A DNA stretch of 64,000 bases from a virus (Duplodnaviria > Caudoviricetes), in the IMG/VR virus record IMGVR_UViG_3300025120_010521. One strand, written 5' to 3'. Position numbers and translations under genes: made by a program. Of this stretch, positions 2 to 54,041 are shown piece by piece (the first letter of the stretch is position 1; each line of letters starts with the position of its first letter). Below the pieces are notes generated by a model that was not told the origin of the DNA, did not search any database, and saw only the letters and a list, made by a program, of their open reading frames with translations.

Positions 2-1366
2 AGCTTCTTCTGATTCCGTAGACTCAGTTTCACTCTCTGTGCTTTCAGCTTCCGTTTCTGACGGTTCAGACTCTGTCGATGTTTCAGTACTAGGTTCACT
101 TTCAGTTGTTTCCGTTTCTGTAGTTGGTTCTGATTCTGTTTCAACTGTTTCTTCACTAGTATTTACTGTTTCAGATTCTGTTGTAGGTTCTTCTTCTACT
201 ACTGGACTTTCTTCAATTGGTGCTTCTTCTTCAACTGTTGGTTCTTCCACAGTAGGTTCTTCTTCTGTAGGTGTTGCAAATTCTTCTGTGACCATTTCTG
301 TTACTGCTTCAAAAAACTGTTCTTCTGTAATGCCTTCTTCAACCAATGCTTCTTCAAACGTTTCTGTTAATCCTTCTTCTTCAAGTATCGCTGTAAAGTT
401 CTCTTCAAATGATTCCTGGAATGCCTGTTGTTCGATCTCTACTGTTGGTTCTTCAATTGTAGGTTCCGCTACTTCAACTGTAGGTTCTTCAACAGCAATT
501 TCTTCAACACCTTCCACTATTTCTTCAATAGGAATGTTTTCAATGATGTTTTCTACTTCTTCAATGGCTTCATTTGCTTCTTCAATCTCTTCTTCTTGTT
601 CTACAGTTAATGGTGTGTAATCAATATCAGCTATTGTCATTTCTAATGCCGCACCTATTAAATTTGGTCCTTGTAGGCCACTGGTGTTACTTGAATTATT
701 GCCATCTGTACCTGTCCATTGCCAGTCAAAGTTTCTAGAACCTTCTCCTGTGTATGTTACTGAATCTTGGTGTATAGCTGTATTACTATTGTAACCAGCG
801 TCTGTGTTCCTTGTTTGCTCTACTGTGGCCAATACATTGCCACTGGCATCTTTGATTTCTACTTTAACTGTAAATGAGTCTTGGGCACCTGCAGATGATC
901 CACATTTGTAACTTGAACTTTGCCATTCACAGTTCTGCTGTTCTGTGGTTGACTTTAGTGTAACACCACCATCTAGCATCTGTGCATCTGTTGTAGTTGT
1001 GCCACCGTTTTGTTTGTCTACTGTGATGTTCTCTAATGATCCTGATGTGCCTATTGTTATGTTACCATTTGATTCTATATCTTTGGTTCCAGCAGTTCCC
1101 CATTCTTTACCTGTACCTGATCTTACATCAAACCCTTGATTGGTCGTATCACCTTGTTGGTATGCTGGTTGATTACTGCCTGAACAACCTATACCTGCAG
1201 GTCCATTACCACTTGCTCTGTTGTTCGTACAGGCTTGGTTGCCTGTGTTAGGCAGTAAGTTTCCTGATGTGGCCGTTTCCGCATAAACGTCTGTGTTCTG
1301 CACAAAGGCTTGAATAGCCATCAGTGCTAGTATAAAGAAAAGCGACTGTTTCCAACGTTTAATCAT
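2..1366 (-). CDS. Secreted/surface protein with signal peptide, G/T/N-rich domain and long acidic E/T/P-rich stalk (partial, runs off window start)
   Basis: Not in the track (no stop in window). ATG at 1366 gives MIKRWKQSLFFILALMAIQAFV..., open to position 2, ending in EEPTVEE/TETESTE low-complexity repeats. Confidence 0.8.
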   Translation of the reverse strand, partial: MIKRWKQSLFFILALMAIQAFVQNTDVYAETATSGNLLPNTGNQACTNNRASGNGPAGIGCSGSNQPAYQQGDTTNQGFDVRSGTGKEWGTAGTKDIESNGNITIGTSGSLENITVDKQNGGTTTTDAQMLDGGVTLKSTTEQQNCEWQSSSYKCGSSAGAQDSFTVKVEIKDASGNVLATVEQTRNTDAGYNSNTAIHQDSVTYTGEGSRNFDWQWTGTDGNNSSNTSGLQGPNLIGAALEMTIADIDYTPLTVEQEEEIEEANEAIEEVENIIENIPIEEIVEGVEEIAVEEPTVEVAEPTIEEPTVEIEQQAFQESFEENFTAILEEEGLTETFEEALVEEGITEEQFFEAVTEMVTEEFATPTEEEPTVEEPTVEEEAPIEESPVVEEEPTTESETVNTSEETVETESEPTTETETTESEPSTETSTESEPSETEAESTESETESTESEEA

Positions 1367-1425
1367 TTATAGTGCAACTCCAAAAAGAACTAATCCTATA
1401 ACCACCATTAATGGTTTAATTAAAT

Positions 1426-2313
1426 TTAATCCTTTTTTTTAGCGTCTACTTCATTTATTATAGAATCAGTATGCGGTGCAATTGGCTCTATTATAACCTT
1501 ATCAGTTGTAATAGTTGTTTCTGCTTTTGGCATAAGTGCTTCTGCTTCTTTGGCATTAGCTTCCGCTTGTTCTAATAACTCTGCTTGTAACTTTTGTAAC
1601 TCTTTAATTTGCTTCTCTAAATTTTTGTTGTCTTTTGCAATTTGTTTTATGTTTACTTTTAAAGTTTCATTTTCTTCAAGTACGCCTTCGTCTTTCATAA
1701 TACGTTCATCAATTTCTAAACGTGTATCCATTTTTTCAACATACTTATCGTAATCTGGTCTTTCAATATCGTATTTGTCCCATTGTGCTTTTGCATCTTT
1801 ACCAATCTTACCTTCAAAAGGACATGGCGTACCTGCTTGTTCCATTGATTCAAACACACGTGGATCTTGGCAGAGTATAGCAACTGCGGCAACCTTCATA
1901 CCATAATCGTTCAATAATTTTGACAGTTTCATACGTTCACAATTCATATCTCTTGCAGTTGAACCACCTGATAAACCAACACCTGGTAATTGTAAACCAC
2001 CTGATCTACCAACTGCACAAACATCTTGTGAATAAGCACTCATACTTGGTGCACCTGCACTTGGAACTGGTATAGTGTTTTTGTTATTTGTTGTATTAGT
2101 AGTATCGTTGTTGGTAGTAGAATTGCTAGAAGATCCTGACTGATATGTTGTTGTAGTTTCAGCCGCATAACCACCTGATATAGTAGTGTTTGACCCTGAT
2201 GTGTTTGTTTGTGAATTTGTAGTTGCACCTGAGTTTGTAACATCTGCATAAGCAGATAATGATACAAAACCAAAAAGTGTGGCGATCGCAATTGTTCTTA
2301 TAAAATTGTACAT
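1426..2313 (-). CDS. Secreted protein with Cys-containing domain and coiled coil; candidate -1 frameshift adds a C-terminal membrane anchor ending at 1367
   Basis: Signal peptide MYNFIRTIAIATLFGFVSLSAYA; T/S/N-rich linker; ends GCT AAA AAA AAG GAT TAA. Confidence 0.8.
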   Translation of the reverse strand: MYNFIRTIAIATLFGFVSLSAYADVTNSGATTNSQTNTSGSNTTISGGYAAETTTTYQSGSSSNSTTNNDTTNTTNNKNTIPVPSAGAPSMSAYSQDVCAVGRSGGLQLPGVGLSGGSTARDMNCERMKLSKLLNDYGMKVAAVAILCQDPRVFESMEQAGTPCPFEGKIGKDAKAQWDKYDIERPDYDKYVEKMDTRLEIDERIMKDEGVLEENETLKVNIKQIAKDNKNLEKQIKELQKLQAELLEQAEANAKEAEALMPKAETTITTDKVIIEPIAPHTDSIINEVDAKKKD

Positions 2314-2415: not shown

Positions 2416-2610
2416 TTAGTGTTTTTCGCAAAAATCTTTTGATGCTGATAAACCACCTTCTTTACCATAGACCCATACGTAACTTGATACTGTACTGCCA
2501 TCTTCGTTGACGTTACATTTTTTACCAAATGACATTCTTGGATCTTTAGGTACTATTGAACAACCTGTAAATAATATTACTGTTGCTAATATTAGTAGTG
2601 TTTTTCCCAT
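2416..2610 (-). CDS. Small lipoprotein
   Basis: Lipobox-like LFTGC after a hydrophobic stretch. Confidence 0.7.
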   Translation of the reverse strand: MGKTLLILATVILFTGCSIVPKDPRMSFGKKCNVNEDGSTVSSYVWVYGKEGGLSASKDFCEKH

Positions 2611-53291: not shown

Positions 53292-54041
53292 CTACTTTTT
53301 TTTAAAAATTGGAATTGGGTCCATTTTATGTAGATTCAGCTTTCTTATGCTATGATATTTATCTAGTAAATCTATGTCTGGTCCAATTGCAATAGCACCT
53401 TTTTCGTCTAGTTCCATTGCTCTTTCCATTTGTTCATAAGATAAACCGCCTAGCTGATCTTTATCTGTTCTACCATCTTCCCATAACCCATCGGTTGGAG
53501 GTGCATCAATTATTTCTTGTAGGACACCTAAATCTTTTCCTAGTTGCCAAACTTCTGATTTCATTAGGTCTGCTAATGGAGATATATCAACTCCGCCATC
53601 ACCATATTTTGTATAAAAACCTACTCCAAAGTCTTCTACTTTATTACCTGTGCCTACAACAAGTCCTTTTTTAGCACCCGATATATGATGTAGTGTAAGC
53701 ATTCTAAGTCTTGCTTTTGTGTTTGCAAATGCATGTTCACTGCCGTAATCATTAAATGTATCTAACCAAAATCTTTCATAAGTCCTATTTAGATCAATTA
53801 CTTCATGTGTTACATTGTTAAATTTTTCTTCTAACCAAGATCCATGATCCATACTTAAATCATGTTGATCTTCAATTTGGTTTATTGGCATAGAGACTGC
53901 AATGGTTTTCATTCTAGTCATAGCACACAATGTACTGACTACTGACGAATCAATGCCTCCTGATATTCCTACTACTAATGTTTTACGATTATTTTCGTTG
54001 GCGTATCTTTTTATCCATTTAGAAATGTCGTCTTGTATCAT
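53292..54041 (-). CDS. nadE: NH3-dependent NAD+ synthetase
   Basis: VGISGGIDS, NTKARLRM, GTGNKVED, YTKYGDG, PTDGLW. Confidence 0.95.
   Translation of the reverse strand: MIQDDISKWIKRYANENNRKTLVVGISGGIDSSVVSTLCAMTRMKTIAVSMPINQIEDQHDLSMDHGSWLEEKFNNVTHEVIDLNRTYERFWLDTFNDYGSEHAFANTKARLRMLTLHHISGAKKGLVVGTGNKVEDFGVGFYTKYGDGGVDISPLADLMKSEVWQLGKDLGVLQEIIDAPPTDGLWEDGRTDKDQLGGLSYEQMERAMELDEKGAIAIGPDIDLLDKYHSIRKLNLHKMDPIPIFKKK

What the first reader, a model, noticed from the sequence alone, without database searches (positions are those of the whole stretch)
1367..1443. Candidate -1 frameshift adding a membrane anchor to a secreted protein
Seen: the 295-aa ORF ends GCT AAA AAA AAG GAT TAA, containing A_AAA_AAG. 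In the -1 frame it continues GLNLIKPLMVVIGLVLFGVAL-stop, a hydrophobic helix whose TAA (1369-1367) directly abuts the next ATG (1366). The 0-frame stop leaves a 59-nt gap. Established: A_AAA_AAG is the E. coli dnaX and IS3-family slippery heptamer. Inference: soluble and membrane-anchored isoforms are made from one gene. I saw no strong stimulatory hairpin.
Basis: partly seen in the sequence, partly recalled or inferred. Interest (0 to 1): 0.8.

Follow-up and report, generated by a model that had tools for sequence, protein, structure and literature searches.

The report
Frameshift adds membrane tail, marine phage
A giant marine phage (relatives infect the ocean bacterium Pelagibacter) ends an exported protein gene with the classic slippery sequence A_AAA_AAG. 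About ten related phage lineages keep both this site and a hydrophobic tail in the -1 frame, so the gene most likely makes a free form and a membrane-anchored form.

Summary
On the minus strand a 295-aa exported protein ends GCT AAA AAA AAG GAT TAA. The -1 frame continues for 21 codons (GLNLIKPLMVVIGLVLFGVAL), and its stop abuts the next gene's ATG.

The A8 run is not an assembly error. Identical DNA occurs in three other assemblies and in contigs of independent runs.

The window is a jumbo T4-type marine phage. In 29 loci from about ten lineages, including cultured Pelagibacter phage Mosig, an in-phase A_AAA_AAG (A6, A7 or A8) precedes a -1 frame with no start codon that ends in the same tail ([KR]P L..GLLLFGVAL-stop).
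- Tail codons vary mostly at third positions (pN/pS 0.42).
- Pelagiphage HTVC115P and many distant homologues carry the tail in frame.
- Tail-less relatives place the next gene right after the 0-frame stop.
- A6/A7 lineages have GGAGG-like sequences 9-16 nt upstream, and Mosig has a GC hairpin 6 nt downstream. The window's own A8 lineage has neither.

Best reading: programmed -1 ribosomal frameshifting, with transcriptional slippage possibly contributing on A8, gives soluble and anchored isoforms. No product was seen directly. The protein's function is unknown. I found no published description. The scan's first readers flagged this same site twice, both on this DNA.

The parts
1426..2313 (-). 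0-frame gene, 295 aa (P0001). It has an N-terminal signal peptide, a disordered Ser/Thr/Asn-rich stretch, a conserved 4-Cys domain (about residues 85-210), a long helix (216-260) and a variable end ...EVDAKKKD-stop.
   Evidence: Matches phrog_20531 at E 1.4e-14. No Pfam or NCBIfam family.
2245..2313 (-). Predicted Sec signal peptide, residues 1-23 (MYNFIRTIAIATLFGFVSLSAYA, then DV). No lipobox cysteine.
   Evidence: Read from the sequence. A23, D24 and V25 are invariant in alignment A1. Predicted as a helix at residues 2-17. No signal-peptide predictor was available.
1432..1438 (-). Slippery heptamer A_AAA_AAG, in phase with the 0 frame (codons xxA AAA AAG). It lies inside the A8 run 1433-1440.
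   Evidence: The same in-phase heptamer occurs in all 29 tail-bearing loci.
1426..1428 (-). 0-frame stop TAA, one codon after the heptamer. It ends the soluble 295-aa form.
1370..1432 (-). The -1 frame extension of 21 codons, GLNLIKPLMVVIGLVLFGVAL. This is the hydrophobic C-terminal tail; its last 15 residues have mean hydropathy 2.71. The predicted frameshift product is 294 + 21 = 315 aa.
1367..1369 (-). The -1 frame stop TAA, directly followed by the next gene's ATG.
2..1366 (-). Next gene. It runs off the window and is 620 aa in the identical contig L083. It encodes an exported protein with a Cys-containing head, a long acidic Glu/Thr stalk and a coiled-coil end.
2416..2610 (-). Upstream 64-aa predicted lipoprotein (LFTG-C lipobox). 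Context only; it is not conserved beside the homologues in cultured pelagiphages.

Best explanation
The gene is decoded in two ways. Most ribosomes read AAA AAA AAG GAT and stop, which gives a 295-aa exported, soluble protein. A fixed fraction slip back one base while tRNA-Lys occupies AAA AAG of the heptamer A_AAA_AAG. These ribosomes read 21 more codons in the -1 frame and make a 315-aa form. Its extreme C-terminus is a hydrophobic helix that most likely holds the protein in the inner membrane after Sec export.

Shown: the sequence features and their conservation. Inferred: the frameshift itself, its efficiency and the membrane insertion.

In relatives with shorter A runs the slip is probably boosted by an upstream Shine-Dalgarno-like GGAGG, a downstream hairpin or an adjacent stop codon. 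The window's A8 lineage has no such helper, so extra A insertion by RNA polymerase may add to the same product. Ribosomes that shift terminate right at the next gene's start, so shifting may also feed translation of that gene.
For: 1. Conservation. All 29 loci with a -1 hydrophobic tail have A_AAA_AAG in phase, with runs of A6, A7 or A8. They comprise the window itself (1 locus), 21 metagenome loci, 3 identical copies of the window, cultured phage Mosig and 3 IMG/VR loci, about ten lineages in all. Only 1 of 57 tail-less loci has the heptamer (Fisher test, run with 1 of 54 entered, 1.6e-21, not corrected for relatedness).
2. Direction. The shift needed is always -1 and always at the heptamer.
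3. No independent start. The -1 frame opens only 2-12 codons before the heptamer and holds no ATG, GTG or TTG.
4. Coding-type evolution. The last 16 tail codons align without gaps in 19 distinct DNAs. Variable columns by codon position are 12, 7 and 16 of 16. pN/pS is 0.42 in the tail frame against 0.75 and 3.4 in the other two frames. L159 and L194 differ by a two-codon length difference that keeps a 40-42-codon extension open.
5. The tail belongs to this protein. Pelagiphage HTVC115P gp54 ends ...ITALAFGVAF in frame. At least 18 of 149 distant cluster representatives end in a hydrophobic tail in frame.
6. Gene spacing. In tail-bearing loci the next gene starts 0-3 nt after, or overlaps, the -1 stop. 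In tail-less loci it starts 1-6 nt after the 0-frame stop.
7. Stimulators in relatives. GGAGG or AGGAG lies 9-16 nt upstream in the A6 lineages, Mosig and L159/L194. For the A6 lineages and Mosig, the ones scored, this is in the top 0.2-1.2% of anti-SD pairing among windows of their loci. Mosig has CCGGTG-loop-CACCGG 6 nt downstream. L159/L194 have TAG right after the heptamer.
8. AAG choice. AAG is only 16% of Lys codons here, yet the run always ends in AAG.
9. tRNA supply. A Pelagibacteraceae genome shows tRNA-Lys(UUU) and no CUU among the 30 tRNA matches listed. Two tail-bearing phage records encode no tRNA-Lys. A sole tRNA-Lys is what makes A_AAA_AAG shifty in E. coli (PMC5009743).
10. A8 is the consensus in independent assemblies.
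Against: - No protein, ribosome-profiling or raw RNA-read evidence was available, so the product and its efficiency are unobserved.
- The window's own lineage has no SD-like element (anti-SD pairing at the locus median) and no significant downstream structure (z = -0.2).
- The heptamer is common by chance in this AT-rich genome (7 in 46 ORFs), and one tail-less lineage (L018) keeps it.
- Many relatives do without any tail, so the anchored form is not essential to the family.
- The conserved TTTGGAG in the tail lies 10-14 nt before the next start codon and may partly be that gene's ribosome-binding site.
- The hydrophobic stretch is only about 15-18 residues with no basic residues after it, so 'membrane anchor' is an inference.
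- The host's tRNA set comes from one incomplete single-cell genome, and the host of this phage is not known.
Confidence: 0.65

Rival explanations
1. The same two products arise, but mainly through transcriptional slippage. RNA polymerase adds one A in the A run, and normal translation of A9 transcripts then reads straight into the tail.
For: The window's lineage has A8 and lacks both an SD-like element and a hairpin. Run length goes inversely with the presence of an SD-like element: A8 lineages have none, while most A6 and A7 lineages have one. This fits two different mechanisms. Thermus dnaX and Ebola GP use slippage on A runs to make alternative C-termini (PMC5009743).
Against: Six of about ten lineages have only A6 or A7 ending in G, which is short for efficient bacterial RNA polymerase slippage (established knowledge, not tested here). 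The run always ends in AAG and in phase, which slippage does not require. SD-like elements, a hairpin and an adjacent stop are ribosomal stimulators. A contig from RNA libraries shows A8 as the majority form, although contigs hide minority forms.
Confidence: 0.2
2. There is no recoding. The tail is a relic of an ancestral in-frame tail cut off by a 1-nt deletion. The 59-nt gap is kept only as a spacer and ribosome-binding region for the next gene.
For: Tail-less relatives exist and appear functional. GGAG in the tail sits at SD distance from the next ATG. Nothing shows the product directly.
Against: A relic would accumulate stops and indels. Instead 19 distinct DNAs stay open, hydrophobic and under purifying selection in exactly the -1 frame, across divergence as deep as Mosig (branch about 2.8 changes per site). 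The break is always -1 and always at A_AAG. Extensions of 28-42 codons in Mosig and L159/L194 stay open.
Confidence: 0.08
3. The tail is a separate tiny membrane peptide translated on its own, by reinitiation after the 0-frame stop or from a non-standard start codon.
For: Podovirus relatives (HTVC202P, HTVC023P, Baldr and many IMG/VR contigs) do encode a separate 33-62-aa membrane ORF at this position, starting at an ATGA overlap with the stop codon.
Against: None of the -1 ORFs holds ATG, GTG or TTG upstream of the hydrophobic part. Internal starts are not conserved and would give 8-13-aa peptides. The -1 ORF begins upstream of the 0-frame stop, at the heptamer.
Confidence: 0.04
4. The true sequence is A9 and the frameshift is a homopolymer sequencing or assembly error.
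For: Homopolymers are error-prone in some technologies.
Against: The identical A8 stretch occurs in three other samples' contigs and in contigs of at least three independent studies. Relatives with A6 and A7 need the same -1 shift. Of the 29 tail-bearing loci found, all need the -1 shift; none of these close relatives carries the tail in frame.
Confidence: 0.01

Closest known systems
E. coli dnaX programmed -1 frameshift (tau/gamma)
   Same: Same heptamer A_AAA_AAG decoded by tRNA-Lys. A 0-frame and a -1 product share their N-terminal part. Several relatives have an upstream SD-like element at about 10 nt and/or a downstream stem-loop, as dnaX does (PMC5009743).
   Different: In dnaX the shift truncates the protein. 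Here it extends the protein by a hydrophobic tail. The window's own lineage lacks both stimulators. The gene family is unrelated.
Ebola virus GP gene (sGP versus transmembrane GP by slippage on an A run)
   Same: One gene gives a secreted form and a membrane-anchored form, depending on a one-base frame change at an A run (PMC5009743).
   Different: Ebola uses polymerase stuttering in an RNA virus of animals. Here the phase-locked A_AAG, the short A6 runs and the SD-like helpers point to the ribosome, in a DNA phage.
IS3-family (IS911/IS150) and phage lambda G/GT -1 frameshifts
   Same: A -1 shift near the end of an upstream ORF fuses it to a downstream -1 frame at a fixed ratio. This is common in phages and mobile elements (PMC5009743).
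   Different: Those shifts fuse two sizeable domains (transposase, tail chaperone). Here only 21-42 residues are added and their role is localisation. The gene is not between tail tube and tape-measure genes.
Unimolecular spanin, T1 gp11
   Same: The predicted frameshift product has the same topology: an N-terminal export signal plus a transmembrane segment at the extreme C-terminus, which would span the periplasm. Homologues lie next to endolysin genes in three podophages (PMC6139136).
   Different: There is no lipobox or lipoylated cysteine. The periplasmic part has four conserved cysteines and is helix-rich, whereas u-spanins have no periplasmic cysteine and are beta-rich. There is no sequence similarity. 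This is a resemblance of topology only.
Pelagibacter phage HTVC115P gp54 and Mosig EXVC030M Mosig_00202 (both annotated hypothetical)
   Same: They are true homologues. HTVC115P carries the tail in frame. Mosig has the same heptamer and -1 tail as the window.
   Different: Neither record annotates a frameshift. Mosig_00202 is deposited as the 0-frame product only.

Membership tests
Programmed -1 ribosomal frameshift site, dnaX type | Heptamer X_XXY_YYZ in phase with the 0 frame | tested here: met
   A_AAA_AAG at 1438-1432 with codons xxA AAA AAG. It is in phase in all 29 tail-bearing loci.
Programmed -1 ribosomal frameshift site, dnaX type | The -1 ORF overlaps the site, has no start of its own and is conserved as protein | tested here: met
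   plus in-frame tails in homologues.
Programmed -1 ribosomal frameshift site, dnaX type | Upstream Shine-Dalgarno-like stimulator about 10 nt before the site | tested here: not met
   Window: anti-SD pairing -1.9 kcal/mol, at the locus median. Met in relatives: the A6 lineages, Mosig and L159/L194 have GGAGG or AGGAG 9-16 nt upstream.
Programmed -1 ribosomal frameshift site, dnaX type | Downstream stem-loop or pseudoknot 5-9 nt after the site | tested here: not met
   Window: minimum free energy -9.9, z = -0.2. Mosig has a 6-bp GC stem 6 nt downstream, and the L013/L024 lineages have z of -2.5 to -3.1.
Programmed -1 ribosomal frameshift site, dnaX type | Frameshift product demonstrated | not testable with these tools
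   Only assembled contigs of RNA libraries were available. There are no proteomic data.
Programmed -1 ribosomal frameshift site, dnaX type | Single tRNA-Lys (UUU) reads both AAA and AAG in the host | tested here: inconclusive
   One 1.2-Mb Pelagibacteraceae single-cell genome has Lys(UUU) and no Lys(CUU) among the 30 tRNA matches listed. That genome may be incomplete and the host of this phage is not known. Phage records G002 and G003 carry no tRNA-Lys.
Transcriptional slippage site | Long homopolymer, about 9 or more A/T in bacteria | tested here: inconclusive
   A8 in the window, and A6 or A7 in most lineages. The threshold is from established knowledge, not measured here.
Transcriptional slippage site | RNA shows run-length heterogeneity that is absent from DNA | not testable with these tools
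   Read laying returned contigs only, and contigs drop minority variants.
Unimolecular spanin (T1 gp11 type) | N-terminal lipoprotein signal with lipobox cysteine | tested here: not met
   The signal ends SAYA then DV, with no cysteine. The definition is from PMC6139136.
Unimolecular spanin (T1 gp11 type) | C-terminal transmembrane domain | tested here: inconclusive
   It is present only in the predicted -1 product. It is 15-18 hydrophobic residues long with mean hydropathy 2.71.
Unimolecular spanin (T1 gp11 type) | Member of a lysis cassette; no periplasmic cysteine | tested here: not met
   The window's neighbours are SufS-like and envelope proteins, with no endolysin seen. Four cysteines are conserved. 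Homologues do sit beside lysozyme or peptidase M15 in three podophages.
phrog_20531 (phage protein family of unknown function) | Profile match | tested here: met
   E 1.4e-14 over residues 23-172.

The most novel reading that the evidence does not exclude
The frameshift is a stoichiometry device for a phage-built envelope complex. It fixes the ratio of inner-membrane-anchored to free periplasmic subunits. Because only shifted ribosomes terminate at the next gene's start, it also couples synthesis of the 620-aa acidic partner to the anchored form. The family would then show three interchangeable genetic solutions for the same membrane helix: in-frame tail, frameshifted tail and split small membrane ORF.
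Probability: 0.25. Interest if true: 0.75.

Novelty: new variant of a known kind. Interest (0 to 1): 0.62.

Why it matters
Apart from tail-chaperone and capsid genes, few programmed frameshifts in phages have comparative support this strong. I found none that switches an exported protein between a free and a membrane-anchored form.

It occurs in very abundant ocean phages: more than 8000 homologues in marine metagenomes and 1631 clusters at 50% identity. It also occurs in a cultured phage-host pair (Mosig on Pelagibacter HTCC1062), so it can be tested directly.

The site corrects the annotation of these genes, since the tail is missed by every gene caller. It flags an uncharacterised exported protein module shared by pelagiphages of three morphotypes. 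The lineages also form a natural series in which run length and stimulators appear to trade off (A8 bare; A6 or A7 with SD, hairpin or stop). That series is useful for studying what makes A_AAA_AAG shift in AT-rich, streamlined hosts.

Tried and rejected
- Function. Pfam and NCBIfam gave no family for the protein or its neighbours. The AlphaFold model (pLDDT 74) had no PDB match at E <= 0.001 and only uncharacterised AFDB relatives. The ESM Atlas gave no usable hit. The function therefore stays unknown.
- Own genome. It is not held. The genome-contig scan gave only 2 loci.
- Known phages. Megablast of the first 12 kb against phage records found only a tRNA.
- Run-length variants. Exact-pattern scans of IMG/VR for A7, A8 and A9 versions of the window's site found nothing at all, not even A8, so they say nothing about run-length variation.
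- RNA evidence. Read laying gave contigs only, so minority A9 transcripts, RNA ends and expression level could not be assessed.
- Shared RNA structure. No common downstream structure exists across lineages; the hairpins are lineage-specific.
- Readthrough fusion. Reading through the tail stop into the next gene was considered and rejected, because the two frames agree in some lineages but not in others.
- u-spanin membership. Rejected for lack of a lipobox.
- Literature. Searches found no description of this site.

Full report
**What is in the window**

All coordinates here are on the minus strand. ORF 2313..1426 encodes 295 aa and ends GCT AAA AAA AAG GAT TAA. The A run is 1440-1433 (A8) and the heptamer A_AAA_AAG is 1438-1432, in phase as xxA AAA AAG.

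From G1432 the -1 frame reads 21 codons, GLNLIKPLMVVIGLVLFGVAL. It stops at TAA 1369-1367, and the next gene's ATG follows at 1366. The other two frames of the 59-nt gap are full of stops.

The protein begins with a signal-peptide-like segment ending SAYA/DV. The conserved alignment starts exactly there.

**Could it be chance or error?**

- The genome is AT-rich (32% GC) and uses AAA for 84% of Lys codons.
- In-phase A_AAA_AAG occurs 7 times in 46 long ORFs, so the heptamer alone means little.
- A -1 continuation of 21 or more codons follows 7.4% of codon positions. One that ends in a hydrophobic 15-mer follows 3 of 15,289 positions.
- The exact 130-nt stretch with A8 is present in contigs from three other samples (L083-L085).
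- Logan contigs from independent runs (DNA X2 and X4; RNA libraries X9/X14) cover 1271-1720 without any indel.

An A9 assembly error is excluded for practical purposes.

**What the organism is**

- No whole genome is held.
- All long ORFs lie on one strand.
- The window encodes an ATP-dependent DNA ligase, a tail-fibre-like protein, a cytidyltransferase-nucleotidase, many radical-SAM/SPASM proteins, SufB, a SufS-like protein and six scattered tRNAs.
- Contigs carrying the identical gene reach 286 kb. A relative in IMG/VR is a complete 328-kb genome with terminal repeats.

This is a jumbo T4-type marine phage, as other agents of this scan also concluded. The protein matches phrog_20531.

Its central domain occurs in Pelagibacter phages HTVC202P, Baldr, Mosig, HTVC033P, HTVC023P and HTVC115P, in Roseobacter phages and in Ralstonia phage RSP15. 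The family is large. More than 8000 close homologues were found in marine metagenomes, and 1631 clusters at 50% identity.

**Comparative test of the frameshift**

None of the 120 best homologues called by gene finders ends in a hydrophobic tail, so I read the DNA directly. The 80 metagenome loci show two architectures.

- *Tail-less loci (57).* The next gene's start lies 1-6 nt after the 0-frame stop, and there is no gap.
- *Tail-bearing loci (the window itself, 21 metagenome loci, 3 identical copies of the window, cultured phage Mosig and 3 IMG/VR loci, 29 in all).* The gene ends with an in-phase A_AAA_AAG. The 0-frame stop follows 0-10 codons later. A -1 frame of 21-42 codons ends in the same hydrophobic motif, and the next gene starts at or within 3 nt of the -1 stop.

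These 29 loci fall into about ten lineages, with runs of A6 (GGA AAA AAG), A7 (GAA AAA AAG) or A8.

- The heptamer is present in 29 of 29 tail-bearing loci and in 1 of 57 tail-less loci. A Fisher test run with 1 of 54 entered gave 1.6e-21; it is not corrected for relatedness.
- The required shift is always -1 and always at the heptamer. Random decay of an in-frame tail would not produce that pattern.
- The -1 frame opens only 2-12 codons upstream of the site and holds no ATG, GTG or TTG.

**Is the tail translated?**

- The last 16 tail codons of 19 distinct DNA sequences align without gaps to [KR][PSA][LI]xx[VIL]x[GST][LI][LVI]LFG[VIM][AGV][LFIM]-stop.
- Variable columns by codon position are 12, 7 and 16 of 16.
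- pN/pS is 0.42 in the tail frame, with pS near saturation, against 0.75 and 3.4 in the other two frames.
- In the deep lineage L159/L194 a 40-42-codon extension stays open across many substitutions and a two-codon length difference.

**Does the tail belong to this protein?**

Pelagiphage HTVC115P gp54 carries ...NIIPMVITALAFGVAF-stop in frame. At least 18 of 149 distant cluster representatives also end in a hydrophobic tail at the very C-terminus. The tail is therefore a native, optional part of this protein family.

The family shows four genetic solutions:
- tail in frame (HTVC115P and others);
- tail behind a -1 shift (the window, Mosig and others);
- no tail;
- in many podoviruses, a separate 33-62-aa membrane ORF that starts at an ATGA overlap with the stop codon.

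On a tree of the conserved core, tail-bearing loci are scattered among tail-less ones. The tree needs six changes, and well-supported branches force at least two. Mosig is the outgroup, which suggests an old trait lost repeatedly by swapping of the 3' module.

**Mechanism**

Several features point to the ribosome.

- The run always ends in AAG in phase, although AAG is the minor Lys codon.
- A6 runs are short for polymerase slippage (established knowledge, not tested here).
- The A6 lineages, Mosig and L159/L194 have GGAGG or AGGAG 9-16 nt upstream. For the A6 lineages and Mosig, the ones scored, this lies in the top 0.2-1.2% of anti-SD pairing among windows of their own loci. This resembles the dnaX 5' stimulator (PMC5009743).
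- Mosig has a GC-rich 6-bp hairpin 6 nt downstream.
- L159/L194 have a stop codon directly after the heptamer.
- A Pelagibacteraceae genome has tRNA-Lys(UUU) and no CUU among the 30 tRNA matches listed. Tail-bearing phage records encode no tRNA-Lys. In E. coli a sole tRNA-Lys is what makes this heptamer so shifty (PMC5009743).

The window's own A8 lineage has no SD-like element and no significant structure. Here the longer run may substitute for the stimulators, either through easier ribosomal slippage or through RNA polymerase adding an A. A contig from RNA libraries shows A8 as the majority form, but contigs cannot reveal a minority. I put ribosomal frameshifting at 0.65 and transcriptional slippage as the main route at 0.20. 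A relic with no recoding gets 0.08, a separate peptide 0.04 and sequencing error 0.01.

**What the product would do**

- The model has a disordered Ser/Thr/Asn-rich stretch (residues 23-80), a confident beta-hairpin plus helical domain with four conserved cysteines (100-210) and a long helix (216-260). No solved fold matches it.
- With a cleaved signal peptide, the 0-frame form would be free in the periplasm. The 315-aa form would be held by a hydrophobic segment at its extreme C-terminus (mean hydropathy 2.71).
- This topology resembles unimolecular spanins (PMC6139136), and homologues sit beside endolysin genes in three podophages. The protein has no lipobox, has periplasmic cysteines and is helix-rich, so it is not a member of that family.
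- The neighbours are a 64-aa lipoprotein, a 620-aa exported acidic-stalk protein and a 131-aa protein with an N-terminal membrane segment and a coiled coil. Together these suggest an envelope complex. The function remains unknown.

**Novelty**

The mechanism is classical, but this site, this gene family and this outcome were not found in the literature I could search. The Mosig record annotates only the 0-frame product.

The closest functional analogue is Ebola GP, where slippage on an A run switches between secreted and transmembrane forms. I class this as a new variant of a known kind. It is well supported by comparison, unproven at the protein level, and directly testable in a cultured system.

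Noticed in passing
L087:2905-3018 (HTVC202P), L088:2962-3063 (HTVC023P); also L172-L174, L192, L193, L196, L198, L199: A conserved 33-38-aa membrane ORF (MIWL..FIGVM.YAVYRIN.F.DD.NPYNF) starts at an ATGA overlap with the homologue's stop codon and overlaps the next gene's start. It is not annotated in the two GenBank records. It sits where the frameshifted tail sits in the myophages.
   Followed up: partly
L119:1290-1478 (Baldr); L169, L170, L180-L183, L186, L190, L191, L201: Other podovirus-like contigs have, at the same position, a 55-62-aa ORF with an N-terminal membrane helix followed by a coiled coil. It also starts at an ATGA overlap. Its build resembles the 131-aa protein two genes downstream in the window's phage.
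   Followed up: no
L018:2290-2330 (also proteins P0044, P0051): One tail-less lineage keeps the in-phase GAA AAA AAG, but its -1 frame stops after one codon, and the 0 frame runs on 9 codons to ...FNSAGK. This looks like a 3' module swap that left the heptamer behind.
   Followed up: partly
window 1279-1622: Contigs in runs X9 and X14 join 1279 to 1622 with 328 other letters in between. A co-occurring strain therefore has a different 3' end of this gene and 5' end of the next, which fits modular exchange of this junction.
   Followed up: no
L083:12797-13192 (two genes downstream, beyond the window's left edge) and window 2416-2610: A 131-aa protein with an N-terminal membrane helix and a periplasmic coiled coil, and a 64-aa lipoprotein, flank the module. 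This is a build like a separated i-spanin/o-spanin pair. No family match was found.
   Followed up: partly
window 53292-54041 (minus strand): A second in-phase A_AAA_AAG lies three codons before the stop of a 249-aa ORF, but its -1 frame adds only 6 residues. It is probably a chance heptamer.
   Followed up: partly
L028/L031, L024/L051/L054 tail ends: In some lineages the next gene starts inside the tail's last codons (GTGA or ATGA overlaps). In others the stop and the start are adjacent (TAAATG, TAGATG). Tight coupling to the -1 stop is kept even though the junction sequence differs.
   Followed up: partly
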